A DNA stretch of 50,765 bases, the filler included, from Catajapyx aquilonaris (lineage: Eukaryota): NCBI GenBank assembly GCA_000934665.2. It is 2 parts of 2 records of this genome, joined end to end, with 100 filler letters (N's around TTAATTAATTAA, not from the genome) between each part and the next. Parts side by side here need not be neighbours in the genome. Positions count along the whole stretch, not along the records: positions 1 to 25,319 come from JYFJ02005389.1; 1 more part is not named here. One strand, 5' to 3'. This document shows, piece by piece, positions 2,873-45,393 of this stretch. Numbering within the stretch: position 1 is the stretch's first letter; the number at the start of each line of letters is the position of its first letter. The translations under genes and the position numbers were made by a program. The notes under the pieces are model-generated. The model ran no database searches. It was not told where the DNA came from and saw only the letters and a list, made by a program, of their open reading frames with translations.

Positions 2873-5131
2873 CTAATAATGGATTTTAATTTTAGATTAA
2901 CAGTCCAGAGTCAGAATAAAATATGCACCTACGTACACTTAACTATGACTATTAAATACTTCGTATCATAACAAAGGGCCTATTGGTGGCCACTCCCAAT
3001 ATGTCACCATTGGGAGAATTGAGGTGGGCAGTGACTTTCCACATTACATTACGAGCTTTACACTAAGGGCCAGATGCACTCAAGATTTGGTCATGATGAC
3101 ATGCAGGCTCAACTCAGCCATAGTGGGAAGTGAGAGAGTTGTGATTTCATCTTGAGTGCATCTGCCAGTCTACTGTAACTTCATATTTGATCATCCTATG
3201 ATTTAACTTTTTACAACATAATCACTGATAATTAGAAACAAGGCCCTAAAAACCAACATATAAAATTCTTGATTAACTCGAAAATGGTTGCACAGCGAAG
3301 ACTCATACTTTAATTTTGTTTTCGGGTGCTCAGTTTACCCCAAGTGAGTTTCATTCAACAAATCAATCGTTTCTGATTTGCTAAGTACTCCATATTAGCA
3401 TACCCTACCTACCACGAGATTGCTTGCCCCTTTTCCTCTCACCAGGCAATCACAGACAATTTGAAGTTGTATGTCATTACCAAGCCAATGTGTAGGAGGG
3501 GGGGAAGAGAAAAGGAGGTAGCTTCCATTGAAATCTACGGGTGGATAAGGTATAGCATGCTGCACAGCTGCATAGTCTCAGGAATTCTTGGGAATCTTAT
3601 GGAGTTGAACACAAGCAGTTTTGACCAGGTTGTTGTAGCCTGGAAATCAGGTGCATCAGTATGGCTTACAAGTTCATTGTTCAAGCTTATTCTGCTACAA
3701 CAGCAACTGCATCATGCTGTTACGCATAAAGAAGGATTTAAGACTGGAGGCCCTAAAAGGTGCCCGATATGCAAATTGCATCCCTGATTTGCAGAAGTGA
3801 AAAAATTTAATGATTTAATTGCATTCTATCAATTACAAATTACACAAGCAACACTTTGGTTGACAAGTAAGCATCATGAGGTCCTGCACTCCTTATGGAT
3901 TAAACTGTGCATAAAGCTGTATCTCTTTCACAGCCGTCCGGCAGCTGGGCTGCCCCAGATCTGGCCAGCCCAGGTGACCCTTTTGCAGATGGCCTACCTA
4001 GCTAGTAACTCCTGATCAGTGGGCCACCTTGTGTTCCTGACAAAAGGTTGCCTGATGGCTCCAAAGGCAACATGGGTTGTGCACATGGTAATTGTTCCAT
4101 GGCAAGTTTGTTGTGGGACTGGCAATTAGAAAGGCACACAGAGTAAGGCTTTCGTATATTTTTATAACTTTTTTTTAGGGCCCATTGCAGCAATGCAAAT
4201 TGCAAAAGCAGTAACGCGAAGAACTCAAAGTCTTTTCTAACATTGATGGAAAAAAATTACAAAACATTTTCAAGGAATCCTAATGTCTTCTGTGACCACT
4301 TCAATTTATTTATCTTTAAATTGCAAATTCACGATTTCCAAACCCACTTTCTGAGTTGGGTATCTAACTAGGCAAAGTTGAGTTTCACTTTTTAACCCAA
4401 TATCATTAGGAACAACCTCAACAAAAATTATTTCCATGTGTGCAAAAACCAAGGGGGGTAACAACTTCATGGAACCGGTGTACAGGGTCCCTGTGGAACC
4501 GTCTTGGAACCGGCCTGGAACCAGGTGGAACCACCCGGTCCCAGGAACAGGTGTACACTATTTGGGGAGTTGTTAGCCCCTTGGCAAAAACCTATCCTGC
4601 AACATATCCTTGTATTTAGCAACCGAAAAAAAATTGATATATTTTAACACCAGCATTTTCCCCCAGAAATTCCAACGTGGCCCAAAGAAAGGAAAATTTC
4701 TGCAGCTTGAATTAGTTACTCTTTCTCATTCCAGGATATCTTCATAACCAAGATTGACACACTGCATGCATCTTAGACAGCTCTGCCGTTCAGTTTGAAA
4801 GTCTGTACCAGCATCTGGTACAAATGATGGCCTCAGACCAGGTGAATTAAATACAACGGTACTTTTCCATTTCCTGAAGGCCCCTATGTTTCTGTTGTCT
4901 TTGTTATAGCCAACCTCCCACCTTTTCAAATTTTCATGAAAATGCCATCATATAGCAACAGGAGTACAGTGTCAACAACAGAACGAGTCCAACAGAAGAG
5001 AGGGCCATTCCAGAAGGGGAAAAAAAACCCAAATGGAATTCAAGAAACAGAAAAATACCAATATAACATTCCACAAAAATATATTCGTTGTTTATTAGTG
5101 AAGGTAAACTAACTCAACTGCTATGCTTTAA

Positions 5132-5885
5132 AGGAAGGTTTCAGTGATTTTGCAAGTTGGGCTTCAAAGATCAAGGTAGACTCCCGGATGCCAAAAATGT
5201 AATCAGTTTTTAAATCTGACGCCGCGTAAGCAAATGCTGTTAGGTGAAAGTCAATATCAGCTACTGTATTCGATACGGTAAGCGTACAGCTAGCGCCTCC
5301 CGCGGAGATCCCAGTAACATGCCTTGGCCAACATCGGCTTATCCACGAAGTCAATTTTTGAACTAGGAATAAGTGGATGAATCACTTGGCCCTTCCTCCG
5401 ACGCCGTCACATACAGCCAAGATGTGGGCAATGTATTCCTCGTCTCTCTCTCCGGATTATACCTCACGGCACTACCCGCCTTGGTAAGTCTCGAGCTGAT
5501 ACGAAAGTATCCCGCCGTGGCCATCACTCTGTCACATGGTCCGACCACTGGCGCCCTTCTCTCCCACTCTGCCTCCCCTTCTCATCCTCCCCTCCATTCC
5601 CATGGCCCTTGGCACCCGGGGCAGGTTCCGCTCGGGTCGAAAACACAAAAACCTGGCTTGCACGTGGTTTGTCGCTATGGGGGCGGACATCTTGATTGTA
5701 TGTTGGATCTTCCATTGCTGCCGCTAGAGGGAACCAGTGTTCGATGCTGATTTTCAAAAAAATCAACTTTGACTTGAAATTTTATGTTTATGGTGCATTT
5801 GCCACCAAAACTGACCGGATATTCAGAATCAGAGAGTTCTGCTTGATTTTTGAAGCTCAACATGCAAAATCACTGAACCCTTCCT
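5132..5885. mobile_element. Non-autonomous Kolobok-like DNA transposon
   Basis: TTAA on both sides (5128-5131, 5886-5889). TIRs AGGAAGG(T/G)TTCAGTGATTTTGCA..GTTG.GCTTCAAA.ATCAAG begin with purines, which fits Kolobok rather than piggyBac. Confidence 0.7.
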
Positions 5886-7079
5886 TTAAGTAGAGAATCC
5901 GAGAGTTTCATTAGGCGAACATCCTTTGTCAGAATCTCGCAGATGGAATCTGACCTCATAACCAGCGCACTAGGCCACTATTACGGCATAGGCACTTCCA
6001 AATTGTAAATCATGCATCCTTACACAAACCTGTGCAATCATTTTATTACACAGCACTGTTTAATTCAAAGTAATTAACACCAACTTCCATATTACAGAAC
6101 ATACACCCACAAAAAAAAAGGTGTAGGAGGCCCAGTAGTGGAACTTCGGTACTGTAGTCACTAGCCTTTAATTTAATTCAATTTTTTATAATGTTGTCAT
6201 TACAACATCAGTACTGCAAGCACTTTCAGTAATCATACCTGCCTGCCTGATCCTCAAGATGCTTTACATACCACTTTCTGTCACTTGGCCAATGCAAAAG
6301 GGGAAGGAAGGCAGCAGGGCACAAGTGCCTTGTCTAGATTGAGGTTATGGCCATCTAAGGAGGAGAATGGCCATCTTTAATCCCAGATTAATGGTCTATC
6401 ATTGACATAATGGAAGTTAATGCTCACACGAGGCATGGCACAGTGTATCCCTCAGTGGATGACCATTCATACAAAACTATATTTCCCAGGACTTTCTTGT
6501 GATAGACCGGAATGTACTTCAGAATATCCCATTGTCAGTCCAACTTCCTTGCCTGCCACCCCCAGAGAAGCTTGCCCACTGCTGCATTCTTGTCTGGGGT
6601 TCCATTCAGATTCTCCTTCACCATAGATTAAGATAAGGACAACCAGTTTTTGACAGAAATGCTCATCATTCTCACACCATTCCATTCCTTCCATTACAGC
6701 CTCCCTCCATGTTAAATAAATTTGCATACGTGGCTTAATATAAGGTCTGGGAGCAAAAGGCAGCAGTGTTAAGGCAGTTTCACAAAATCCGCATTGCAGA
6801 AGTGGGGCGTTTGCATTGCTCCCTCACTGTTTGCAAAAAGTCCACCAGGCTGGACATGAGTATAATGCTGCTGCTTGGCCACCAACATTGGTGCATAGCC
6901 CCTCGCAAGTTTTCTGTGCTTCACATGCCCTGCTACCGCAACACCGAGCATGTGAAACAGCCTTTACATGCCATTAATACAATACAAGTCGGGAAACTGT
7001 GTGTTCAATGTCCCTTTTAAATAAGAAAGTAGCAAATGTGTGGTCATTTCCACAATGCAAGGTGCTCACTCATTCATAA

Positions 7080-7517
7080 AGGTCTCAATTCATATTGACT
7101 TGAAACTATGATTTGTGCATGCAAGTCGAACATTTGCGCATTCGATTCCATCCCCATGAGCAGTCGAATCATTACCGGTGTGTGCATGCAATTCAATCCC
7201 CCAAGGGCATATGCGCATTATGGCTTGAAGACCGATAATAATCAAACAGAGCAAGATTCAAATTGCAACAAATGGCAGGGGTGCCAAGAGAATGGGACAG
7301 TGGGTGTGGCAAACATGGAGGTCCCACGTGACCACCCACGGGGACTGATTGGTTAACAGTTGTGCGTGTGGAATGCGCTTGCACACAAGGTGCCAAGAGC
7401 TGCATGCGGTGAGAATCAACAAGAGGCCTACCTGCACGCAGCAATGGCATTCAATCGCATGCATTTGTCACTTGCATGCACATATTGGAGTTTCAAGTTG
7501 ATATGAGTTTAGACCCT
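7080..7517. mobile_element. MITE with long imperfect TIRs
   Basis: GGTCTCAATTCATATTGACTTGAAACT...TGTGCATGCAAGT mirrored by ACTTGCATGCACA...AGTTTCAAGTTGATATGAGTTTAGACC. Confidence 0.65.
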
Positions 7518-7519
7518 AC

Positions 7520-7661
7520 AGCTGCATTTACATGTGAGCGATTTGATGAGCGAGGTCTTCGCCGAGGCTGAGTAACCCAAGTAACCAATATTGTTTGAGG
7601 CGAAAATCGATTGTTAATTTCAGCCTAGGCGAAGATTTCGCTCGTCAATGTAAACGCAGCT
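7520..7661. mobile_element. Harbinger-type MITE
   Basis: TIRs AGCTGCATTTACAT / ATGTAAACGCAGCT; internal inverted TCTTCGCC.AGGCTGA. Confidence 0.6.
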
Positions 7662-8017
7662 TTACACTGCAGAAATAACACAGTAACAGTAAGAACAAAA
7701 AGAAACCACACTTTCAAGATCAAAGCAACAATTGATGTGATTCTTATGATCAAGCAACTCTTCACCTTCAAATCCTACCTCAAGGCAGTGCAACATATAA
7801 TATCAAAATGTATACCTTAGCCTTCCTATGACAGATGTTATGTATTCAACTGTGCCACCAATTTTACCATTAAAAACATTAGTTTTCACATGATCTAGAG
7901 TGGAATACTCTCACTACACCCATACATGAAAACACATCCTATTATTATGAGGCACTATTATTACACACCAATAAATGAAATGACATGTCTGATTGCATAT
8001 ATAAATTGTTACCCTAC

Positions 8018-8178
8018 CTTAGTTACTCCAGAGCTCGAGTTGTGATGTTTTTCTTTGCGCCTTTCTTCATGCTTATCCCTGTGCTTATCCTTGTACTTGT
8101 CCTTATGTTTATGCTCCTTCACAGAAGAATTTTCCCCTATACCATTAGGAAACCCATTTGGTACTCGCTTCCTTTCAT
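8018..8178 (-). CDS. Top1: Coding exon 3 (DERKRVPNGFPNG...KEHKHKDKYKDKHRDKHEERRKEKHHNSSSGVTK) of putative Top1
   Basis: TAACAG acceptor, AAG|GTAGGG donor; 161 bp, phase 1 to 0; charged His/Lys repeat typical of the metazoan Top1 N-terminus. Confidence 0.65.
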
Positions 8179-8392
8179 CTGTTAATAACAAAAGAAACAA
8201 ATTAATAAGGATTCAAGAAAAGCAATTACATCCTATTTTCAACAGATGAGGAAACGTTACATTGGAATTTAAATGTAAAGCAGATCTACGAAGAAATATT
8301 ATAAATTGCATTTAAAATATAACTGTCAATTTAAATATTGTTAACAGTACAATAATAGCGGGTGGAGGGGAAACCCACGCATGATATAAATA

Positions 8393-8563
8393 CAGTAAAA
8401 CCTTGATATAACGCTCTTCAAGGGACAGCCCAAAAGTAGCGTTATAAGCGGGATAGTGTTATGTGGGAAAATTTATTTTATGGAAATGAGCAAGGACTGA
8501 ACAAAAGGGGCATGAAAAGCTGGAAGGTGTTTTATGCAGGAGCATTTTATCAAGGATTTACTG
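8393..8563. mobile_element. pogo/Tigger-type MITE
   Basis: TA|CAGTAAAACCTTGATA ... TATCAAGGATTTACTG|TA. Confidence 0.7.
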
Positions 8564-11960: not shown

Positions 11961-12090
11961 TTGTGAGACTATAGATTAAGTCAAGTTACTTGGCTCACGA
12001 TTGGAGACTATAGACTTACAGCTCGTAGACTTGGCGCATGGTACGAGACTGTAGCCTAAGGTTGAGCCACTTGGTTCATCGGCCCTACAT

Positions 12091-12468
12091 TTGATGACCA
12101 TCACCGTCGATGTTGAGGAAGGAACCTTTCTGGCATCGGATGACTTTGTTTTTCTCCACACAACTTTGGCGCTGAGAGAAGACTCGCTTTACACAGAAGA
12201 GTTCAACTACTCCTCGAGCTTCTACTACAGCATCGGACTGAAGACAAAGCGAGACAGGATTCAAGCTCATCTGGACAAGCTTGGTATCGCCAGAATCAGG
12301 AGAAGGAACGGAGTCACATCTTGGGATGAGACGAATCCCAGTCCGTTTTCACTGATGAACTTGGCTGGATCGTTTGTGATCCTGACCTGTGGAGTATCTC
12401 TGAGTGTCGTGGCCTTCGCGACTGAACTGCTCTCTTATGATGGCCCATCAACTACATACCTAAGATAA
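12091..12468 (+). pseudogene. 3' fragment of a divergent ionotropic receptor (S2 end plus last TM helix)
   Basis: PFSLMNLAGSFVILTCGVSLSVVAFATE is an IR/iGluR final-TM signature. YYSIGLKTKRDR aligns to YYNIIGLKTKQDR of the copy at 21.35 kb. Upstream domains are missing. Confidence 0.7.
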
Positions 12469-12779: not shown

Positions 12780-15693
12780 TCAGAGGAAGTAGAGGGTGTC
12801 GCTGAGGTGTTCGTGCACGTTGGAGTGGATGTACTCCCCGACAAGGTAGGCCAGCTTGTGGGCGTACTGGCAGGGGGCAGGGACATGGACGGTGCCGCTC
12901 CAGTTGAAGTACAGGTGGCACAACTTGTAGGTGAGGAGCTGGATCTTGTCAGGCCCCAGGTTCAATGTGTTGTGGATGATGGAGTAGCTGGTGGGGGCCA
13001 CGGTGCCCTGTCTGACAGACTGGGAGATGAGATAGAAGTCGTACCTCTCCGGAAGGGTGATGTCGTCGTCCACTATGGTCCCTGGGAAGGGGTTGCCTGC
13101 CTGGGCGGTCATGATCCTCGTGTTCAGCCTCTTGTTCACTATCACGAAGCCAAACTTGCACTCTTGCTCCGTGGGGCCGTACATCCTGGTCAGGGCTGCC
13201 AGGATCTGGGACAGCTCGTATTTGCAGACATAGCCAACCTATATACAGAAAAGAAGAAGAAGAAGAAGTGTTAAGTGTCAACACCTCAGAGAGCCATACC
13301 CAAGACTCGTACCTGGCCTTCCCCAACTCCATCACGGTAGAGGATGACAAAACTGGGCAGCCTTCCGTTGGCCTGCTTGTACTTCTGGAGAGCCTGGACC
13401 ATGTTGTTGGAGATGAAGTTGGAGACTTCCTCTTGGTGCGAGTGGATGGCCACGGTGCTGTAGTAGCGGGTGAAGACGGTGTTCGTGGAGGCCACAAGGG
13501 CTCCCACTGAGGTCCCCTTCTGGGCCGTGTTGGGGTAGACGTCGAAGCCCACCACCATGCAGCTCCTCAGGGGGATGTCTGCGGACCAGGGCTCCCCTCC
13601 CAGCTTGCAGTTGATCTGGATGGCTATCTGGGTGGCGATGGACATGAGGCCCTTGGACGAGAGGTTGTGGGCCACCACCACCTGGGAGGCTATCCCCTGC
13701 TCCACGTAGCACCTCTTCTTGACCGCCCCGTACACGTCCTTCCTGTTGGTGGCCAGCACCACCATCACCATCTGGGGGTTGCACTGGATGCAGGCCTTGT
13801 CTATGGCCCTGATGTAGTTCTGCGGCCTCACGTCCGGAAGGAACTCCACCAGAGGGTAGGCCATGGGCATGCTCATCCCGGAGGCCGCGTCCTGCAAGGT
13901 CCTGAGGAAGGGGCCCAGCTCTGCCCTGTTGCGGGCAGGGGCGATGACGACCCAGTTGTGCAGGTTGACCACCTTGAGCATGGAGTTCCTCCTCAGGGCG
14001 CTGGTCCAGTCCGCCTGGATCCCTCCGTTGACCCTCCTGCCCTGCCCCAGCGCGATGGTCTCTGGTTCCAGCTGGCGACCATTGAGCTTGATGAGGTGGT
14101 TCCCAAAGTCCACGTCCAGCTTGCCCAGCTCCTCCATGCAACGGGGCTCGCTGTGGATGCGGCTCATGAACCTCTGGAGGACCTGGACCTTCTTGTCCGG
14201 GGTCTGGTGGGTGTGCTGCCCTACGGCCTTCATCAGCTTGAAGTTCTCCCTCATGGACTGGTCCAGCCCCGTCATGACGCACAGCTCGGGCACCAGGTAG
14301 ACGCACTCCACCTCCCCCCTGTGGACGTCCTTCTTCCTCGGCCTGGAAACCAGCAGGGGCTGCCCCATCTCCGTCACCCTCTCGTTGTAGCGGCTGAAGT
14401 AGTACTCCACGTAGGTGGTGGCCTTGTCCCTCATCATGAACGTGTCCGATGGGCACTTTTCCCAGTCGATGTCGTCGATGCGGTACGTCTTGGAGTTGTA
14501 CTTGGTCATGACGATGGTCCCCAAGAGGGCCTCTGCCGCCAGCTTCTGGTAGTTGTTCCTGTCCCTGTTGTACAGGGTGTGCAGCTGCTTGAGGACCGTG
14601 TCCCTCCTGAGCACCTTGTGGTGGATCTCTGCGCAGAGCAAGAGCTGGTTCTCGTGCTGGCGGATGGAGGTCAGGTATCCGGGCCATATCTCCAGGTCGA
14701 ACTCTGGTATGGAGATGGAGGCGTGCCGGTCGTAGTAGTGCCTCTGGACCATCTCCAGCTGGAGGTGGGACATGGTCTTGCGCAGAAGGGTGTTGAACAG
14801 CTGCAGGTACACGTGATTGTCCAAGGCCATGACCTCCCCTACCAGACGCACCTTCACCTTCACCTTGGCCTTGTCCATGGCCCTCTCCACCGTGGTCTCC
14901 AGCCTCCCTCCCTCCAGCCTGCGGATCATGTACATCACGCTCCCGTCGAAGACGAAGTGGCCTCCAATCACTTCCTCCAAGTTGTGCAGCATCCCCTTCC
15001 GGACAGCCACCCTGTCCTCGTCCGGCTCAAAGTCCACCCGGTACTGCAACAGGGTCCAGTCCCACCACTTGCTGGTCACCTCGAAGTAGTTGGCGATCAG
15101 GTTGGTGGGTCTCCCAGCCGTCCCCTGCTTGGTGTTGGCCGCGCTCTCTGGCCTGGTGCGAACCACCGTCTCCTCTCTCTGCTGGATGTCCCTGCTCCAG
15201 TGGGCCAGGGCTGATGACCGGTAGCCACCTCGACCCACCAGGACCTCCTCTCCAGGATCGTCATCTGCAACAAACAACACCATTTATTGTCTTATTGTAA
15301 TAAATTGTTCTCTCTCTAGCTGCAATGTCCGAAAAGGGACTGACCTTCGGATCCATCTCCTCCACCATTTCCCTTCTTGACCTCCATCCTACGGAGTGAT
15401 TCGGTGACTGCCTCCACTCCGCCAGGGTTAATATGGTCCTTGGAGGGCACCAACGATGACCTCCCCCTTCCCACGATGAAGCCAGCAGGGGTCAGGGTGT
15501 CCTGCTGCAGACCACTGGATGGTACCGGGGCACCTCCTCCTCCAAGTGGTGGTGGTGGGCAAGCAGCACCAGCACCAAGAGCAGCATCAGGCCGATGTGA
15601 AGGACCCTCCTCCAAGAAGGGACGGCCCCTGCCTCTGCCCCTGGCCCTGCCCCTGGCCCTGCCCAGGGGTCGAGCTGTCTCAGGGTTGTCCAT
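12780..15693 (-). CDS. piwi: Piwi/Aubergine-clade PIWI protein, 919 aa; exons 15345-15693, 13313-15264, 12780-13238
   Basis: GT-AG introns of 80 bp (15265-15344, phase 1) and 74 bp (13239-13312, phase 0) join 349+1952+459 = 2760 bp in frame. N-terminal GRARGRARGRGRG motif; PAZ (YNSKTYRIDDIDW, QPLLV, LVPELC); MID (YGAVKK, SQVV, QINCKLGG); PIWI catalytic GFDV / E / YRDGV / YAHKLA; C-terminal LYFL. Confidence 0.96.
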
Positions 15694-16253
15694 CTTGCGT
15701 CAAACCTTTCTGCAACATGATAAATATATGCCATTTGTCAACCGAGATGCTAGGCATTGGTGGAGGAAGACGTGGAACCATCCAAGTTGGCATAGTCAAT
15801 TCGATTTTAGCATAAAATTTAAACCAACTTATCTTCATGGAAATAATGTTCATTGCGCCTTTTGTCTGATGTGATTAAAGTGCACAATCTGTATTGCGTT
15901 ATGAGTATGACTCTCCACCTGTATGCCTCATAACAACCAAGACATACATTTCCCTAAATGTTCACCATCCACAGCAGGTGACCCAGCCGGTTTCGAATCC
16001 GGCGCACTTTTTGGTTGGTTATGCGCAATGTTGCCAACAGAGATCGTCCATCATCCGAAATAATTTCCTCTAAATTGACGGACTTGTTCTGTTGGCTCCA
16101 CCACCAGATGAGCAGCAACACCGTTCGTGGCCAGTCGGTTGGCTCCCCTGGCACAACAAAGTACACCCCCTCCCCTCCCCTCCCCCTCTCCCCCCCACTA
16201 CCTACAACCATTGGCACCCCTGATTCCGAGTAAACAAACTGTTGCGGCGGGAT

Positions 16254-18166
16254 GCCGGTATCCTTTCTGTCGACAGCCGTGAAGTTAACATTTCTTCCGC
16301 CTGGCGGCGCTGGAGGCCAAAGGGACCCCGCAAGGCGCGCTGCTCAAGTGGATGGTGACAATAGGCAGAGAGGGGCGACCACGGGTGGCCCACGTTGCTG
16401 GCACAGCGGGGGGCGGGGGGGGCGGGGAGGATTCCAGTATTTTACATGCCCAGGATGTCTGCTAGCCCTAAGGTCAGCATCCCAGAGGAATCAGACGTAA
16501 TGCCAGGGTCAAGGTTTGCACTCCAGACGTTCATCTAGACTAGAGTCTTCCTTATTACCAAGAGCTCTAACTTGTTATTACTTATTACTTATTTTTAATT
16601 ACTGGGTTCAGCCATGTTAAAAAGCAGGACCAACTCGAGTGCATACTTTGCATTCCAAGGCTCAGTTTGGAGTGCAGACTTCAAAGTAACAATAACAACA
16701 ATAATTTTGGAGTGCAAATAGCACCTTATTTGCATCCAAATATTTCGACCCATGTATTGTGAGCCCAATAATAACTAGCATTTGGGCTGCTTCCAACACC
16801 CTTTTTACTATCCTTTCCTATTAATTTGAAATTGGAGGATTTAGATTTCTTCTTCCACCTCCTCCTTTGTTGAAGTAGTAGTTATATGACTTATCATTAC
16901 ACTCTTCCTGAAATGCTTTCTTACAGTAGTGAATGATTCAAGGTTAAACTGGTTTCCATTCTTGTGTAGGTTCGACAACTTGTGAGTGGCAGGGTGCACA
17001 GGGGTGCGATTATGCAAGGTGAGCCACAGAGGGAACCTAGAGTGGGAACAAGTCCCATTTACTAACACTGGGTCACCATGGGGTTTACAAAGTAAGCTTC
17101 GAAGTATTGAACCCTGCTTTTTCTGCTGCAGCCGTTGGCCAGGTACCAGCCAACACTGGTCCAGCAGTTGTATGCACTGTGGGATCTACTAGTGCAGGGC
17201 AGCTAGGGCAAACTTCGGTACTGTATGTTCAAAACATAAATTATTGTCTGTTGCAGTGGATTGAGTGGCTACGCCTGAAAGGTGCATCTGCTGGTTGAAG
17301 AACTCCAACACCTCGTACTAATTTATTTATTTTTAATTAGCATAGGCCTATGCCAGGCTCATTCCATTTCCATTATTTTGTCAGCATACTTTTACCTCAG
17401 TCACTTCAGCAGAAATGTTTTGAACATACAGAAGTCTGCCCTGCCCTGCACTAGTGGATCCACAGTGCATACAACTGCTGCTGGACCAGTGTTGCCTGGC
17501 CAACGGCTGCAGCAGAAAAAGCAGGGTTCAATATTTCGAATCTTACTTTGTAAACCCCATGGTGACCCATTGTTAGTAAGTGGGACTTGTTCCCGCCCTA
17601 GGTTCCCTCTGTGGCTCACCTTGCATAATCGCACCCCTGTGCACCCTGCCACCGTCCGACCCCACTGACAAGTTGTCGAACCTACACAAGACGAATGGAA
17701 ACCAGTTTAACCTTGAATCATTCACTACTGTAAGAAAGCATCTCAAGAGGAGTGTAGTGATAAGTCATAACGACTACTTCAACAAAGGAGGAAGGCACTC
17801 TAGATGAAAGTCTGGAGTGTAAACTTTGTCCCTGGCATTACCTCTAATCCCTCTGGGATGCTGGCCTTTGGACTAGCAGCAAGAGTAAATAATTATTTAC
17901 TCTTGCTAGCAGACATCCCGGAATTTTCCCCTCCACTGTGCCAGCAACGTGGGCCGCCCGGCTCTCCGGCCTATTGCCTATTGCCTATGTGTGCCTATTG
18001 TCGCCTTATGCGCCTATTGTTGCCTATTGTTGCCTTATGTGCCTATTGCCGATCGCACTTGAGCGCAGCCCGCCATCTGCCGCCATCGCCGTCCGTCCCG
18101 CAGGCCGGCAGCGCCGCCAGGCGGCTGGCCGGGAACTTCACGGCTGTCGACAGAAAGGATACCGGC
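16254..18166. mobile_element. Foldback / Mutator-like non-autonomous element with very long TIRs and 9-bp TSD
   Basis: Termini GCCGGTATCCTTTCTGTCGACAGCCGTGAAGTT / AACTTCACGGCTGTCGACAGAAAGGATACCGGC. Direct repeat CGGCGGGAT at 16245-16253 and 18167-18175. Arms pair 16254-16545 with ~17800-18166 and ~16860-17237 with ~17413-17790; spacer ~175 bp; ~310-bp extra segment in the left arm. Confidence 0.88.
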
Positions 18167-18380
18167 CGGCGGGATAAACAAATTCTCCCCATTCCAGCTG
18201 ACTAACCCACCAGTCCTCCCCAGGGTCACCTCCATGAGTGCCTCCCCCACCTAGACCTAGGTTAGGGTGGGGGAGGCAACCATGTAGGGGACCCTGGTCC
18301 TCCCAACCTAAAAATGCCCAAATTTTCACAACAATCGCCCATTGAATTGAAGTGATGCAAAACCCTACATCGAATGTAAA

Positions 18381-18440
18381 ACAAATCATGCATTTCCCGA
18401 GAAACCATTGTTATTGTTTCTCGGGAAATGCATGATTTGT
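18381..18440. repeat. 60-nt hairpin, perfect 25-bp stem, 10-nt loop
   Basis: ACAAATCATGCATTTCCCGAGAAAC - CATTGTTATT - GTTTCTCGGGAAATGCATGATTTGT. Confidence 0.85.
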
Positions 18441-19742
18441 CATCCTTGTCCTCCTCCCCAAGCAAACCTCTTGAGGATAAACGATGGACCACCTCCAAAG
18501 ACAGACGTCCGAACAGCAACGACCTCCCTGGACGACTGATTGTTGACAAGTGATTGTTGATTACAATGGACCTGTTTGGGGGTGGGGGTTACCCTTGGCA
18601 ACCAAAACAAAAGACGAGCCGATCGCAAGCTGCCATTTTGTTGTTTGGAACACCAATGGTGCCAATAATAATCCACCCCTCCCCCCCCCCACTCCCCCAC
18701 CTTAGTTGACAAACCACTGACAATGTAGCCATTGTTTGGAACACTCCTCCCGTTGCCAAGGGAGACCGCTGCATCCAAGATGATGGATCAAAAAAACAAT
18801 GGTTCCATTTTTTTTTTTGACCCCTTGACGCCATAAAGTGGACCTGGTTCGGAACCGGTGTCCTATACATGTCCAGATGTCCTGCGTAATGGCCCCCCAT
18901 TGTTTTGAGATAATTCGAAGGCGTCAAGCATAAACAATTTCCCCTCCTCTCAGAAGCAGCGTAAATACGATTTTTTAAAAAATAAATAAAACGCAATTAA
19001 AATGAGTGGTAAGCACGCACCTTATGGTTGATGCAGACCACGTACACCTGCTGTCTATGCGGGGCACGACGACGGGTCTGGAGGACACAGCTAGAAGAAG
19101 TGGGGATAAACAGTCGGCCAGGTATAGAGAGGAAGAGCTCTTTTCACGTCCGAACTGGGCCGCTCTCAGACCACGACTGCTGCCAAACTGTTCCATTGTT
19201 GGGTTGAGGTCGATGGAAGGGGGAGTCTCCCAATTGGTCCTCCAGCCTCCTGCCCCGCCCACTCACATCGAGATGGGCCAATCAAAAAGTTTGTTTATAG
19301 AACGGAACAGGGTGGCCAACCTCTGGAGACGTTCGAATTGGTTGTTTACAACAGTGGGCAGGGTTGCCAATATGACAATGGAAACCATGGGAACCCGAAT
19401 GTTGCTCCTTTTCCCCATTAAAAAAAATGAGAATAATTAGAACGCCGAGTAATTGCTGCAATTAATTGGTGTGTATGCGTATCCCATTGCGTAACAATTT
19501 AACCAAGCAGTTCATTCCATTGGACCATTGAGCAGAGGCTGTCACTGTCACTTGAATAGTGCATAGCGACATGAGATGCTCCGTTTGAAAGCAGTACTTA
19601 CTCTCAGTGCGACATGTTGCCATTGACATCCGATATGACATGTGTCCAACAGGACCATTAGGCTGAGGCAATGACAACGCACAATGACAAGAACTTTAGG
19701 AGCAGTGCCAGTGCAGCAAGACTGCTCTAATGAATTCCAACA

Positions 19743-21611
19743 ATGACCATCTTCGTATACACTGTATTGTTGGTACAATTAGTGTCCGCCATCGTCGAAT
19801 TGCACCCCACAAATTCAGCAGGAGACGGAACAATGCTTCGGTTTGTGGCCGGTTCATGTCTGACCAACTGATCGTGGACACCCAGTGCCCTCTTGTGGTA
19901 ACCCACGATGTTCGAGGCCCTTCTCCGGCTCATCTTCACCACCGTCTTGCCAACATGTCCAGGGTGGGAAGGCCTCTTGTTGTGGAACAATCGGGCATTC
20001 GAACCACTTATTGGAACTGTTCTAATTTCGGACCGATTGGACCGAACAGACTTGAGTTGAAACCTGATGTGAAGAGAAGCAAGTGCGTCATGTTTTTAAT
20101 CACAACATGTGCTCGAAACTACAAAGAAGTCTGAAAGAAGTCCTGCGGGACAACATTTTGAGCGAAGAGAGGTCAATGCTGGTGGCCAAAACAGCTCGAG
20201 ATAATTTTTTCTTCTGGATCCGTGACTCACATGTTGACCACATGTTGCTTGAACACCCTGTAAACAAGATCAAGTACAAGTCACTCCTCATTCTTGATCA
20301 CACAAAAATCCAGGTCAAGTCAGCCTGTTTCTTCTGCAACGAAGGACATCCGGCCATTCAAATCCTCAATGGTCAATTGTTCAAAGATTGGTGCACAAAT
20401 TTCAGAGGCAAGTTCCTCCGTGGAGTGTACGACCAACGTAACTACCAGGCCACACGATGTACCCAGAATGATTACCCAAGCATGTGCTTCGTGTCCGATG
20501 CCCTCAACTTCAAATGGAATGTCACTTCGCCTAGGTGTTCAGAAACTTGAGCGTCATCCTCCATTATCTGCATGCCTTTCAGACTGGGAAACTGGACTTC
20601 GTACCTGACTTTGCCCAGCTGGAATACACCTTTGATGACTTCGACTTTGCTACTCCGTACGAGAACAGCCGGATAACATTTATGGCAAGGAAACCTCGTA
20701 GGATCCGGAATCTGTTCATGTTCATATCACCTTATCAGCTGATGCCATGGATCATGATCATTGTTTCTATCGTCATCTCCAGCCTGTTTCTTGTCCTTCT
20801 AAGGTTCAGACAGTACCGGACACTATTCTCGACAATTCAGTTTCTCTCCAGAGCTCTCCTGGAACAATACCCTAGTAGAACACCTGAAGTGCCTGAATTC
20901 CGCATGTTCTTCTCAATGTGGTGCTTCTTCGTTCTGATCATCGGAACAGGTTACAAAAGTAAGCTCTTCGACATCCTGACATTCCCACCTAAAGAAGTGG
21001 TGCCCACCACCATACTGGAGCTCCTGGAATCGCAATACTCCAGAATAGTTTACGACCAGACTTACCTAGCCTTGGTGGCCAACGTGGACAGAAACACTGA
21101 AGACAAATATTACGAATTGTTGAGTCGTATGATTCCAGCCACCTTGAATGAGATGGACATATGTAGCCAATATGTTCTTGACAACGATTCTGTTTGTGTG
21201 CACACAGACGAATTTTTGCAGAAGATTATGAGTAACTCGGAGGCCTTTCATATCGTCTGATTCGCTGACCATGTATCATACTACTGTTCTCTGGCTGTTC
21301 CCAAAGGTGACGTTTGCGCTGATAATTTTAATTTTTATTCGCAATTGTACTACAATATTATTGGCCTCAAAACTAAGCAGGATCGATTTAACCAGTATTT
21401 GGATATGATTAACGCTGCCAAATTTGAATGGATGAACAGTTTTGTAGACGAGGGTAATTGTGAAGCGTTTTCGCTTAATCGTTTGGGCCAGGAATTTTCG
21501 ATTCTTTTTGGCGGATTTATTCTGAGTGTCGGCGTCTCGCTAGCAGAACATCTCGTATGCAAATATAGCATCTGTGTACCTACATGTAGCCATTGTACAA
21601 TTAATACTTAA
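19743..21611 (+). pseudogene. Intronless divergent ionotropic receptor (IR), disrupted by ~3 frameshifts and one in-frame TGA
   Basis: Signal-peptide-like MTIFVYTVLLVQLVSA at 19743; CFFC...LFKDWCTNFRGKFLR; ALNFKW; S1 end TPYENSRITFMARKP; SPYQLMPWIMIIVS (TM1); RALLEQ (pore); RMFFSMWCFFVLIIGTGYKSKLFDILTFP (TM2); final TM FSLNRLGQEFSILFGGFILS. ORFs 20535-21260 and 21345-21611 share a frame across TGA 21258-21260. Confidence 0.85.
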
Positions 21612-26029: not shown

Positions 26030-27310
26030 AGGAGTGGGTAAAAAAACTCACTGACCACAGCAAATTGACCTGTAGAATAAGCAAGAGTTACAAGGAGTAC
26101 AATGCTGGAGAGCGCAAAACAGGCTGGCAGTATGATTTTAAGAAAGATTATAGGTTCCAACACAAGACAAAATGCACAAGGACAGTCGTGGACCCTAAAC
26201 CACAACAATCACAAAGAATACCAACGGCAGTTCCAACTTGAAGGTTCACGTTCTGATGTAAAATCAGGTAGCTTATGTATGTATAGCCTTCATGTACAAG
26301 GGCTGCTCAAGAAATTCTCAGATTTTTATTCTAGTGACAGAATGCACCATTCAATAAAAGCAGAACAGGGGGCATTGGGAAGAGGTGGCCTTTTTTTGTT
26401 TGCCCATGGCAACGGCTTTGTTGGTGATTACCACGGAAACAGGCTGTGCGAAGAACGGGCTCTGCTGTTAGTTATTAATTAATAATTAAATTTTTAATAA
26501 TTAAATCATGACTTAAACCAATGAATTAATTACATTGAATCATTAATTCAGCATTCAATTCTACAATATCATTTGTACAATTCAACTGTACACTTCAATT
26601 GTACATAAAATTCCACTTTGTTTATTTCATTATGTCTGTTCAATTCCAGGAGAGACTTGAAACACAGCAAGAATAAAGATCATCTGGCCCACCCTTGGCG
26701 ATGTATTGTGGAACTAAATGGAGTTCATAATCATCAAGTTGACAGCGTACATGCCCTGAGGTTTAGGGATACAGCTGATGAGGTGTGGGATAAACTTGAT
26801 CAACTGTTCAGGATGGGGCATTCTGCCTCTTCAGCACGCCACTCCTTGGAGACTGCCTTGCAGCTTGACCATCCAGATGACTGGCCTACTTACATGGCGG
26901 ATACCAAGTATCTTCCAACACTGTCTGCGGTGAACAGCTACTTTCGAAAAGTTTTCTTTGCAGAATATGGAACTCGGTCTGGCAAGGATGCCATTGTTGA
27001 TCTGGAGAAATTTCTGGAAAAGCGCAGTAGCACAGCAGAAGGGGAAGGGCTGAAATATGTGGTAGATTTCACCAGTGAGGGGCACCTGTATGTTTGCCTG
27101 TGTACATCTTTGATGTCAAGGATACACAAGCATGTTGTGCAATGTTCTGAAATCATGTATGTTGATGCCACAGGTGGGCTAGATAAGTCCAATCACCACC
27201 TGTACTTATTTATGACATCAACACCAGTTGTTGGGGGTTTACCCTTGGGAATTATTATCACGGACTCGGAGAAACAGTCAGTGTTTGAACAAGCCTTAGA
27301 ATCACAGATA
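26030..27310 (+). mobile_element. Mutator/MULE transposase fragment (N-terminal half, spliced, truncated)
   Basis: HNHQVDSVHALRFRD, LCTSLMSRIH, MYVDATGGLD (first catalytic D), GGLPLGIIITDSE; probable intron ending at CCAG| ~26649. Confidence 0.8.
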
Positions 27311-27319
27311 GAAAAGTGC

Positions 27320-28320
27320 TTTCCAGCATCATATCCACAGCAGGTTCATAAAAACAAATGAAGTGTGGTTAAGGCGACATCTCAATTTAGTGGCGACGCA
27401 GATATCTCTCAGAGACAGACCGGGCCGACCGCAAAAGCCATTCCAGGAAAGCAGCGACCGCACAAAAAGAAGAAAGGTGGATGCACTGTGCTCCACGCCT
27501 GAGGCAGATGAGCTCGCATATGTCACTCAAAAGAGTTTGAGGGCTTCTGGTTCTCGAGACGCAGCAGATTTGCTAAAGGAGGCAACAACAACATCGCCTG
27601 ACAGGGCAAGAAAAATCGAGAAAAATCAAGAAAGTGTGGAAAGCAAGCAGAAAGCCGCAGTCTTCCCAGGTTCAACGACTCTCCGCAGACCAAGCTTTGT
27701 CATTAATCATCGAGAAAAAGATGACTACACATCAGTACGAGCTAAACAGGAGCATTCTGAAGACTCAGGCAAATGCTGACGTGTATACATCATACAAAAG
27801 TGTACTGGCAGCAAAAAAAAGCGTGCTATCCAGAAGAGCATCAGTTAACACATAAATCCGCGGAGGTGTCAGTGCAAGCTTTGGTGGACCATACAGCTAT
27901 GAGACTTCTGAAGTACCAACAAGAAGTACTAACTTCTGTAGACTGCTTGCGGAACTTTGTATTGATACCATAGTGGGGTTGCATACAAGCAAAGGTTCGA
28001 AAGTGGGCACTGATAAACCGACGAAGATTTTTGTTTGTTAGTTCGCTAGTACCGATTCAACTGTTCGGGGGTAACTGACGACCACAAGAAGATAGTAGTG
28101 TGGCAAAATCCACGCCCCTCGTCAACAAGATACTGCCGGCCAATTAGGTTCGTGTTTTAGGAATGCGAAACAGTGATTGACAGGGAGTGTGGCCATATAC
28201 AAAGTCAAGTCGAGTCAGTAACAGCGACAGAAGCAGTCATCAATGAAAAAAGGCTGACAGTCAGACATGAAATGGTAATGACAATGGTGGACGGCAAGAT
28301 CTGTAACAACTTGACAAACA
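27320..28320 (+). mobile_element. Degenerate Transib transposase (RAG1-core relative)
   Basis: RFIKTNEVWL, GRPQKPFQESSDRTKRRK, ATTTSPDRA, YTSYKSVLAAKK-CYP, VQALVDHTAMRL, WGC, SSLVPIQL, WQNPRPSSTRYCRPIRF, MTMVDGKICN. Contains frameshifts and stops; the DG after WGC is deleted. Confidence 0.9.
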
Positions 28321-35698: not shown

Positions 35699-37203
35699 TA
35701 TGGAATCTACGAACGTGTACAATATGCATTACAAATAGGTGAAAAGAACATTTACCGATGTTTTCGCGGCCCTAAATTTGATTTTTTAGGCTATTTTGTA
35801 CCAGGACATACAGGGTGTACCATAAAAGACCATCGAATTTAAGAACTTGTGGAATCTGCTTTACAAGTAAGGATATGTGAAAATAGTATTTTACCGTATG
35901 TTGGGGGACAATGATTTTAATTTTTAGGCTATACTGAACCCAGACAAATAGCTTGTATCCAAAACACCGTCAAATTTGAGATATCGTGGAATAAATTGTT
36001 GCACAGTATAACACGATAGCATTTAATAATAGGCCTATATGTAGGTGAAAGTAATGCTTCCCCAGTTTTTACGGTCGCTGATTTATATTTTGAGGAAAAT
36101 TCCAACCCAGGCCAACAAATTGTATCATAAACACCATAACCACTCCACAAGTAACAGAAAATAATATACAAAATACGCTGCTCAAACATTCAACATTCTT
36201 CTGATTCATCGGAACGCGCCTGCTTTTGACTGATTGCATAATGCTAAAAACTAAATATTTAGGAAAATAAGTACTTGGTCTCGTAGAGCATGGATTTGGA
36301 ACTGTTAACAGAATATCAATAATGGGTACTTCTTTATTGTAAATCCGAGAAATTTCAACTGGTAACATTCCGCAAATTTTCACAAATTTTGAAGTTCAAT
36401 AAGGCATACAAAACGCGCTCAGTACGACTCAGTGATGAAATTGGATTTAAGTTGACCTGAAGATAATAGGGAAGCTATCCAAGTAAGATTCAGCTGCAGC
36501 GAGCCGCAGCTGAAGGAAATATTCTACGATATTCACTTTCAGGGGCCACTTCATCTTCTTTTTGCACTGAATTACTGCAGTATTAGTATTACGGTGCGAC
36601 CCCACTTCACAAAATGCTACCTTGGGACATAAATATTATTAGTCCCAAAGGAACCCTGTGGTTTGAGGCATAAAATTTTGAAGCTATACCTACAGGGTGT
36701 ACCAAAAACTCCATGGAATCTACGAACGTGTACAATAAGCATTACAAATAGCCTAAATAGGTGAAAATAACATTTCCCGATGTTTTCGCTGTCCTAATTT
36801 TGATATTTTAGGTTATTTTGCACCAGTACATACAGGGTGAACCATAAAAGACCATCGAATTTAAGAACTTGTGGAATCTGCATTACAAGTAGTCAAGTAC
36901 GGATATGTGAAAATAGTATTTTACCGTATGTTGGTGGACAATGATTTTGATTTTTACAATTGACATTTTTACTATTTTCACATATCCGTACTTGACTACT
37001 TGTAATGCAGATTCCACAAGTTCTTAAATTCGATGGTCTTTTTATGGTACACCCTGTATGTCCTGGTACAAAATAAGCTAAAAAATCAAAATTAGGACCG
37101 CGAAAACATCGGTAAATGTTATTTTCACCTATTTGTAATGCATATTGTACACGTTCGTAGATTCCATGGTGAGTTTTTAGTACACCCTGTAGGTATAGCT
37201 TCG
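35699..37203. repeat. Three copies of a ~230-bp unit: direct copies at ~35699-35930 and ~36680-36955, inverted copy at ~36970-37203
   Basis: ATGGAATCTACGAACGTGTACAAT...ACCATAAAAGACCATCGAATTTAAGAACTTGTGGAATCTGC...GGATATGTGAAAATAGTA occurs twice on + and once on -. Confidence 0.85.
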
Positions 37204-42242: not shown

Positions 42243-42430
42243 TATATTATGTCAATGCAGTTTGTACCCTAAATTCTATCCTGTTACCTGATAATAGTAG
42301 GCGAATAGCAGGGGCGGCCATCTCGTTCTTGGGGTATGGTTACATAATTTGCCAGCTGCTTATGTTCACAAATCCACGTAACATTTCCCTTTCCCACAGG
42401 TAATCTACAAATTAAACAAGAGTTTACGTG

Positions 42431-45319: not shown

Positions 45320-45393
45320 GGTACATTTCATAAAAGTTTGTTGTTTCACATTTCACATTGGCTGTTCTTTTACTTCAGATTCTAGTGGACGAG

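What the first reader, a model, noticed from the sequence alone, without database searches (positions are those of the whole stretch)
16245..18175. 1.9-kb foldback transposon with 9-bp TSD sitting 560 bp 5' of the piwi start codon
Seen: a near-complete palindrome (arms roughly 700 bp paired, ~175-bp spacer) flanked by an exact 9-bp duplication CGGCGGGAT, plus a splice-acceptor-like TTGCAG 16 nt before the piwi ATG (15710), which implies an upstream non-coding exon. Known: long TIRs with a 9-bp TSD mark Mutator/Foldback elements, and long intramolecular dsRNA is a Dicer-2/ADAR substrate. Inference: if the piwi TSS lies beyond 18175, the piwi pre-mRNA carries a long TE-derived hairpin. That could make endo-siRNAs against this family or tie piwi expression to TE silencing in a feedback loop.
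Basis: partly seen in the sequence, partly recalled or inferred. Interest (0 to 1): 0.72.

Follow-up and report, generated by a model that had tools for sequence, protein, structure and literature searches.

The report
Splicing-gene-carrying foldback transposon beside piwi copy
A young palindromic jumping element, repeated at about 20 places in this likely arthropod genome and built around a borrowed piece of the splicing-factor gene U2AF65, sits upstream of only one of several near-identical piwi gene copies, most likely as a chance insertion and not as a regulatory switch.

Summary
The element is real: 1,913 bp (16254-18166), with an exact 9-bp duplication, 33-bp perfect ends, about 610 paired bases (not 700) and a 177-bp spacer. 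The piwi ATG is at 15693; 15710 is the splice acceptor. The genome holds 31 such ends, and full copies differ by 0.9-3.9%, so the family is young and non-autonomous. This piwi is one of about five recent duplicates: four other upstream regions are empty at the site and a fifth is deleted across it, so the hairpin is not a conserved piwi feature. New here: the arms and spacer are a decayed exon-intron piece of the splicing-factor gene U2AF65. The same module heads several Mutator (MULE) transposase genes in this genome, and one of these lies in an element with GCCGGT ends and a 9-bp duplication. That ties the foldback to a U2AF65-carrying MULE clade (a Pack-MULE). Candidate promoters lie on both sides of the element. 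A distal start, which would make the hairpin intronic, is somewhat more likely (about 60%), but no RNA data test it. A feedback loop is unsupported (about 7%).

The parts
16245..16253 (+). Left 9-bp target-site duplication CGGCGGGAT
   Evidence: present once at empty homologous loci
16254..18166 (.). Non-autonomous Mutator-like foldback element, 1,913 bp, GCCGG ends
18167..18175 (+). Right 9-bp target-site duplication
16254..16286 (+). Perfect 33-bp terminal inverted repeat, left; pairs with 18134-18166
18134..18166 (-). Perfect 33-bp terminal inverted repeat, right
16540..16858 (+). Unpaired block of the left arm, shared by other copies; 16591-16754 matches a separate dispersed repeat
16754..17237 (+). 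Left copy of the U2AF65-derived exon-intron module; 16860-17237 is the main paired arm
17238..17414 (.). 177-bp spacer. On the minus strand it carries the U2AF65-like donor, intron and start of the next RRM1 exon. The best match to host U2AF65 (35 nt, 2 mismatches) is at about 17273-17307
17415..17795 (-). Right copy of the U2AF65-derived module, in sense orientation relative to piwi
17396..17506 (-). Cryptic 111-nt exon with upstream TACTAAC branch motif, pyrimidine tract/AG and GT donor. Its signals are kept in 7 of 7 full-length copies. It holds two ATGs, one predicted to open an out-of-frame ORF that overlaps the piwi start
17620..17681 (-). Second cryptic exon (62 nt) from the captured module
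17880..17905 (.). 26-bp perfect palindrome flanked by a 7-bp duplication; found in this copy and in 0 of 12 other loci checked
18221..18296 (.). Separate 76-bp high-copy miniature inverted-repeat element with an 8-bp TSD, absent from the paralogs
12780..15693 (-). piwi (Siwi/Aub-type) coding region: exons 15693-15345, 15264-13313 and 13238-12780; 919 aa, catalytic-type D/E/D/H motifs present
15710..15715 (-). Splice acceptor TTGCAG of the 5' UTR intron, kept in paralogs
15948..16076 (-). Candidate proximal first exon (Inr-like +1 at 16076, DPE at +28, donor at 15947); present in 4 of 5 paralogs, absent in C189. Predicted only
18505..18539 (-). Candidate middle core promoter (consensus Inr, +1 at 18537, DPE at +28); no strong donor follows it. 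Predicted only
19021..19178 (-). Candidate distal first exon (Inr-like +1 at 19178, DPE at +28, donor AAG|GTGCGT at 19020); donor kept in 4 of 4 paralogs that cover it. Predicted only

Best explanation
This is a young, non-autonomous foldback transposon, likely of the Mutator (MULE) group, whose long arms are a captured and decayed piece of the splicing-factor gene U2AF65, and it most likely landed by chance upstream of one of about five recently duplicated piwi genes without a selected role. Shown: the element, its TSD, its family, the U2AF65-derived interior, the related U2AF65-module/MULE-transposase loci, and the empty piwi paralogs. Inferred: an ancestral MULE captured U2AF65 exons with their introns and used them as the 5' part of its transposase gene. 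One end was then duplicated head-to-head to give the foldback. A transposase acting in trans copied it into GC-rich nnnCnGnnn targets, one of which lay in this piwi upstream region. Any effect is predicted to be local to this one paralog and buffered by the others.
For: Family: 31 ends with at most 2 mismatches in 25 nt against 0 for the control pattern. 10 of 13 left-type ends pair with a right-type end through an exact 9-bp TSD, plus one more. Seven full-length copies differ by 0.9-3.9%. No long ORF. Targets are 70% GC with C4/G6 in 39 of 42 symmetrised strands (two sites counted twice). 48% of 31 flanks are at least 60% GC against 7.5% of window 50-mers. Capture: the interior aligns, introns included, at 66-73% (BLAST) to a triple U2AF-module/MULE gene on C1464, and at 74% over aligned columns to the U2AF65 gene on C559. 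The matching RRM exon on C8016 hits U2AF65 structures at E 1e-11. MULE link: C8016 joins the module to a MULE ORF with D, D, CxxH and E residues. C2886 is a 5,658-bp MULE element that starts GCCGGT, has an exact 9-bp TSD with C4/G6, and has degenerate module-like arms; C3166 is a 96-97% copy over its main blocks. Piwi context: 47 matches on 26 contigs, three others at 92-94% identity. 4 of 5 homologous upstream regions are empty and 1 is deleted across the site. Depth over piwi is about 4-5 times that over the neighbouring Top1 gene (a rough measure). Flanks differ from the paralogs by 1.6-8.5%. The same upstream region holds a second, unrelated insertion that the paralogs lack.
Against: No autonomous element with the foldback's own ends was found. 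Beyond the terminal GCCGGT, similarity to the C2886 ends is not above shuffles (P 0.15-0.77). The tree of modules is unresolved (3 of 4 inner branches open), so the direct donor and the order of events are not shown. The sequence favours a distal first exon, so the hairpin may well be transcribed and have effects. A 597-nt piece of run X5, likely spliced cDNA, is identical to this copy's 3' end, so the filled copy may be active. Neutrality is inferred from age and patchy presence and was not measured.
Confidence: 0.68

Rival explanations
1. The insertion is a chance event but not silent. Transcription from the distal promoter would place the hairpin and U2AF65-derived cryptic exons in piwi intron 1, and exon trapping, upstream ATGs, A-to-I editing or silencing of the element would then lower the output of this one paralog.
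For: The donor at 19020 is kept in 4 of 4 paralogs that cover it. C189 has a full 919-aa ORF yet lacks the middle and proximal candidates, and its proximal donor is degraded. Inr+DPE at +28 occurs 4 times in 1,957 bp against 0.6 expected (4 of 1,000 shuffles). The element brings a branch motif, acceptor and donor on the piwi sense strand, and an out-of-frame ATG. The hairpin is very stable.
Against: The proximal candidate is kept in 4 of 5 paralogs. The distal and middle modules resemble each other, so the motif count is inflated, and offset +34 also gave 3 hits. The cryptic exon would be base-paired with the left arm. C189 does not keep the distal DPE at +28.
Confidence: 0.2
2. One reading: the hairpin is a co-opted sensor that would make endo-siRNAs or be a piRNA target, tying piwi expression to transposon silencing in a feedback loop.
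For: A long, stable hairpin that is possibly intronic. Copies are similar enough (0.9-3.9%) for small RNAs to cross-react. It is known that small RNAs against an intronic element can repress the host gene (recalled, not from a call).
Against: Only 1 of 6 homologous loci has it. The insertion is young. Every full-length copy is an equal hairpin. Perfect 21-mers shared with related transposase loci are few: 14 of 800 and 13 of 810 in two C1464 modules, at an intron-exon junction, and 0 of 903 in C8016. Long inverted-repeat elements are common here, with two more in this 50-kb window.
Confidence: 0.07
3. The foldback belongs to another superfamily (for example P/Galileo-like) or was mobilised by the THAP element found inside two of its copies, and it took its U2AF65 module from the fusion genes second-hand.
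For: Foldback structure is not specific to MULEs (PMC3169594, PMC5499845, passages). Two copies with their own TSDs carry a THAP-like gene start after base 98.
Against: That THAP element occurs elsewhere with its own ends and no foldback terminus. The 9-bp TSD, GCCGGT end and shared module all match C2886, which encodes a MULE transposase.
Confidence: 0.05

Closest known systems
Pack-MULEs of plants and animal Pack-TIRs, especially Drosophila Ssk-FB4 (PMC8277862, passages read)
   Same: Non-autonomous element with long TIRs and a 9-bp TSD that carries a host gene fragment with introns and has transposed repeatedly; FB4 too has no known transposase.
   Different: Here the captured fragment forms the inverted arms themselves, is decayed and non-coding, comes from an essential splicing factor, and also heads related transposase genes.
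Mutator/Foldback elements Tm1 of root-knot nematodes (PMC3169594) and Muta1 of Aedes aegypti (PMC5499845); passages read
   Same: Long TIRs, 8-9-bp TSD, non-autonomous derivatives, MULE transposases in relatives.
   Different: Their TIRs are built of subterminal tandem repeats. Here only a short tandem patch (17982-18048) occurs, in one arm, and most of the arm is host-gene-derived.
TART-A capture of nxf2 in Drosophila (PMC7785250, abstract and outline seen)
   Same: A transposon carries a captured host-gene piece that could yield antisense small RNAs.
   Different: Here it is a DNA transposon, the gene is U2AF65 and not a piRNA factor, the match is old (no perfect 21-mer with host U2AF65), and no small-RNA data exist.
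Lineage-specific Aub/Piwi expansions, such as Daphnia pulex AUB-A to AUB-F (PMC2680839, passages read)
   Same: Several paralogous Aub/Piwi genes in one arthropod.
   Different: This genome has matches on 26 contigs, including a very recent set at 92-94% identity that duplicated together with upstream DNA and an ionotropic-receptor gene.

Membership tests
MULE (Mutator) superfamily | TSD of 8-10 bp (PMC5499845) | tested here: met
   Exact 9 bp here and in 10 of 13 paired left-type ends, plus L036
MULE (Mutator) superfamily | TIRs longer than 100 bp (PMC5499845) | tested here: met
   About 610 paired columns, 33-bp perfect ends
MULE (Mutator) superfamily | Encodes a zinc-finger plus DDE transposase with CxxH | tested here: not met
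   No such ORF in the element; it is non-autonomous. Related loci C8016, C3166 and C2886 encode MULE ORFs, each with a stop or frameshift
MULE (Mutator) superfamily | Shares its ends with a MULE-transposase element | tested here: inconclusive
   C2886 shares the terminal GCCGGT, a 9-bp TSD and a related module, but subterminal similarity is not above shuffles. No element with identical ends and a transposase was found
Foldback elements | Inverted arms make up most of the element | tested here: met
Foldback elements (type 2, Muta1/FB-like) | TIR built of subterminal tandem repeats at both ends | tested here: not met
   Tandem repeats only at 17982-18048, in one arm
Pack-MULE / Pack-TIR | Carries a host gene fragment with introns from an unlinked locus | tested here: met
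   U2AF65 exon-intron module; host gene on C559
Pack-MULE / Pack-TIR | Fragment has moved with the element (several copies, distinct TSDs) | tested here: met
Hairpin endo-siRNA locus / piwi feedback element | Both arms lie in one transcript | not testable with these tools
   Only promoter and donor predictions
Hairpin endo-siRNA locus / piwi feedback element | 21-22-nt or 25-30-nt RNAs map to the arms | not testable with these tools
   No small-RNA data were on offer
Hairpin endo-siRNA locus / piwi feedback element | Conserved among piwi copies | tested here: not met
   Present in 1 of 6 homologous upstream regions
TART-A/nxf2-type counter-defence | Near-perfect complementarity to the host mRNA within small-RNA-producing sequence | tested here: not met
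   0 of 780 perfect 21-mers with the U2AF65 region; 10 of 775 26-mers with 2 mismatches, all in the unpaired spacer

The most novel reading that the evidence does not exclude
A Mutator clade captured the first RNA-binding domain of the essential splicing factor U2AF65 and used it both as the N-terminus of its transposase and as the body of its terminal repeats. It produced autonomous-type elements, a domesticated triple-RRM gene and a palindromic family. That family spreads U2AF65-type splice sites and double-stranded U2AF65-like RNA into host genes; one copy inside piwi intron 1 damps a piwi paralog, a transposon counter-defence.
Probability: 0.12. Interest if true: 0.8.

Novelty: new variant of a known kind. 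Interest (0 to 1): 0.42.

Why it matters
The piwi adjacency alone is ordinary: one recent insertion in an expanded, redundant family. It does give a natural filled-versus-empty comparison among near-identical paralogs in one genome. The more unusual point is the clade: gene capture by MULEs is well known in plants and thinly documented in animals. Here one genome holds several apparent stages (host U2AF65, module fused to a transposase with DDE residues, TIR-bounded elements, a catalytically degraded triple-RRM gene, and a non-coding foldback family), which would let capture, fusion and domestication be ordered and tested. I found no description of a U2AF65-MULE fusion in two literature searches (listings only). 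None of 13 longer MULE homologs carried an RRM family label (weak evidence by the tool's own note).

Tried and rejected
No RNA holder was listed for the piwi region; this says nothing about expression. Run X5 is not on record as RNA. I read it as spliced cDNA because a piece ends at Top1 exon bounds (8017-8178). It has no cover over 15308-16477 or 18350-19500, so it cannot place the first exon. Its identity with this copy's 3' end cannot be assigned to the filled copy, because four orphan 5' regions have only two assembled 3' ends.

First reading of the empty-site joints in run X2 as a population polymorphism: dropped. Runs X1, X2 and X4 match the Top1 region with almost no differences and are probably the source sample, and paralogs explain the joints. 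An allelic origin of C13857 (2.0% diverged; joint at depth 16.7) is not excluded.

THAP element inside two copies as the autonomous partner: rejected. Search for the foldback's ends beside MULE genes on C8016, C3166, C1464, C524 and C2263: nothing clearly above shuffles. Of 41 MULE Pfam matches I fetched only those related to C1464 (9 contigs, not all among the 41). Upstream regions of 7 more distant piwi paralogs showed no alignable promoter. The Inr/DPE scan found nothing at the Top1 promoter, so I have no positive control for it in this species.

One search used wrong exon bounds and was redone. The module tree was unresolved. RFX, forkhead and CCAAT motifs are enriched upstream (6 vs 0.9, 6 vs 1.6, 10 vs 4.6 expected), but I chose them after viewing the sequence, so this is a lead only; the motif names are recalled. 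Literature searches returned nothing, and one search returned one unrelated paper. Earlier-findings look-ups were blank. No supplements were read.

Full report
Observation. The 9-mer CGGCGGGAT occurs on the + strand of the window only at 16245-16253 and 18167-18175. Between them lies a 1,913-bp element with perfect 33-bp ends starting GCCGG. A global alignment of one half against the reverse complement of the other gives 610 matches and 56 mismatches in four blocks. The largest block is 16860-17237 against 17415-17792 (87%). The left arm has an unpaired block at 16540-16858, and the spacer is 177 bp. The minus strand folds at -1180 kcal/mol against -598 to -620 for 8 of 8 shuffles, with 578 long-range pairs and 9 unbroken stacks of at least 19 bp. 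The neighbouring gene is an intact 919-aa PIWI, closest to Bombyx Siwi among solved structures and to insect Siwi/Aubergine at about 44% in the protein collection, so the organism is likely an arthropod. Its ATG is at 15693; 15710 is the acceptor G, 16 nt upstream.

The family. A 25-nt end pattern finds 31 ends in the 286-Mb assembly against 0 for the control. Pairing ends by their flanks, across contigs too, gives exact 9-bp TSDs for 10 of 13 left-type ends. One further copy has an exact TSD, and several ends stay unpaired at contig breaks, so there are roughly 20 sites. Seven full-length copies of 1.7-1.9 kb differ by 0.9-3.9%, the piwi copy being 0.9% from C6431, and each has 511-611 paired bases. 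Targets are GC-rich, with C at position 4 and G at position 6. 48% of 31 flanks are at least 60% GC against 7.5% of window 50-mers; some of these flanks are other copies of the element. Maize Mutator also prefers GC-rich DNA (PMC5861414, passage). No transposase is encoded.

The piwi context. A 367-aa piece of the protein matches 26 contigs, three others at 92-94% identity. The 564 bp between the ATG and the element match five other contigs. C13857, C10330, C11509 and C189 carry the target once, and C6437 is deleted from 16174 to 18317. Contigs of a DNA run also join across the site. Depth is 30-40 over Top1 and 105-146 over piwi in run X1. The tool warns that this is no copy number, but it fits about 4-5 loci better than alleles. 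Flanks differ from the paralogs by 1.6, 2.0, 6.5, 6.7 and 8.5%. The filled copy also has a private 76-bp miniature element 45 bp further on. The foldback is therefore a recent, copy-specific insertion in a redundant family.

What the arms are made of. The interior's best non-family match is C1464, where it aligns with introns and exons to three tandem modules (66-73%). These modules, and the element's right arm and spacer read on the minus strand, are decayed versions of the U2AF65 exons that lead into RRM1. The host gene is on C559 (74% over aligned columns). The corresponding C8016 exon hits U2AF65 structures at E 1e-11, and the element's own 24-residue piece has U2AF65 as its only two hits, weakly (E 1.4). 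C8016 joins one module to a MULE ORF with D, D, CxxH and E and one late in-frame stop. C1301 is a broken relative. C2886 is a 5,658-bp MULE element that starts GCCGGT, has an exact 9-bp TSD of the same C4/G6 type, and has arms with weak similarity to the module (E 0.002 to 4.5e-7); C3166 is a 96-97% copy over its main blocks; both are frameshifted. So the module-transposase fusion is, or was, a mobile clade and not a single domesticated gene, and the foldback is best read as its non-autonomous derivative. Limits: no transposase lies between the foldback's own ends in this assembly, subterminal similarity to C2886 is not significant, and the module tree is unresolved. That the exons splice to the transposase is inferred from splice signals.

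Is the hairpin in the piwi pre-mRNA? The sequence gives Inr-like motifs with a DPE at +28 at 19178, 18551, 18537 and 16076: 4 in 1,957 bp against 0.6 expected, reached by 4 of 1,000 shuffles. The 19178 and 18537 modules resemble each other, offset +34 also gave 3 hits, and the scan found nothing at Top1, so this is suggestive only. The best donor outside the element, at 19020, is kept in 4 of 4 paralogs that cover it. The proximal donor at 15947 is kept in 4 of 5 and degraded in C189, which lacks the proximal and middle candidates yet has a full 919-aa ORF. I put about 60% on at least one isoform starting beyond the element. In that case the pre-mRNA would carry the hairpin and also a U2AF65-derived cryptic exon (17506-17396) with branch motif, acceptor and donor, kept in 7 of 7 copies, and an out-of-frame ATG.

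Mechanism and rivals. The most likely reading (0.68) is a chance, largely neutral insertion. A local damping of this paralog through splicing, editing or silencing is the main rival (0.2). The feedback loop (0.07) needs conservation, small RNAs and a target; the first is absent, the second is untested, and the third is poor. The element shares 0 of 780 perfect 21-mers with the U2AF65 region, 0 of 903 with C8016, and 14 of 800 and 13 of 810 with two C1464 modules, at an intron-exon junction. Its best match to U2AF65 coding sequence (35 nt, 2 mismatches) lies in the unpaired loop.

Comparison. It works like a Pack-MULE/Pack-TIR such as Ssk-FB4 (PMC8277862, passages) and meets the TSD, TIR and capture criteria (PMC5499845, passages). 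It does not meet the tandem-repeat criterion of type 2 foldbacks. It resembles TART-A/nxf2 (PMC7785250, abstract) only in carrying host sequence. Piwi expansions are known (PMC2680839, passages). Two searches listed no paper on a U2AF65-MULE fusion, and 0 of 13 longer MULE homologs bore an RRM label.

Verdict. A real element and a new variant of a known kind. The piwi link is probably incidental; the U2AF65-carrying Mutator clade is the part worth following. Interest 0.42.

Noticed in passing
L118 (G000:C8016) 6623-1357, minus strand: U2AF65-derived RRM exons upstream of a MULE transposase ORF that keeps D, D, CxxH and E but has one late in-frame stop; the 5' end is cut by the contig edge.
   Followed up: partly
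L136 (G000:C2886) 2874-8531; L119 (C3166): 5.7-kb TIR-bounded MULE with a 9-bp TSD and GCCGGT end, in two copies 96-97% alike over their main blocks and both frameshifted; the arms hold tandem degenerate U2AF-like exon/intron units.
   Followed up: partly
L078 (G000:C1464) 7900-1: Triple U2AF65-RRM-like module fused to a catalytically degraded MULE/SWIM ORF, head-to-head with a gene that looks like NELF-E (name recalled).
   Followed up: partly
L007, L008, L038: Two foldback copies with their own 9-bp TSDs carry the start of a THAP-like element after base 98; the foldback also inserts into its own GC-rich right arm.
   Followed up: partly
window 17873-17912: 26-bp perfect palindrome between 7-bp direct repeats, private to this copy; possibly a footprint of another element.
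   Followed up: partly
window 20068-21611 (+) and 12055-12468 (+): Ionotropic-receptor-like genes flank piwi. The upstream one duplicated with the piwi 5' region and has an in-frame TGA at 21258-21260 that the C6437 copy lacks.
   Followed up: partly
window 39581-41715 and 35700-37176: Two more long inverted-repeat elements (arms about 560 bp at 98%, and a 133-141-bp repeat-based one); no TSD found in a quick scan.
   Followed up: partly
window 42416-47501 (+): 967-aa ORF with C2H2-like motifs plus downstream exons, no Pfam hit; looks like a CMC/EnSpm-type transposon (recalled) next to the 39581-41715 palindrome.
   Followed up: no
window 26609-27361 (+): MULE transposase fragment (ZSWIM RNase H-like, E 2e-4) related to the C1464 ORF at 27%.
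   Followed up: partly
window 15950-16253 and 18167-19700: The piwi upstream region is rich in RFX-half-site, forkhead and CCAAT motifs, and the insertion separates two forkhead-like motifs; chosen after viewing, so a lead only.
   Followed up: partly
window 15625-15664: This paralog's N-terminal RG repeat is longer (GRARGRARGRGRGR) than in the three paralogs checked.
   Followed up: no
window about 9590 down to 2600 (-): Single-copy gene that looks like DNA topoisomerase 1 (name recalled), used as the depth baseline.
   Followed up: partly
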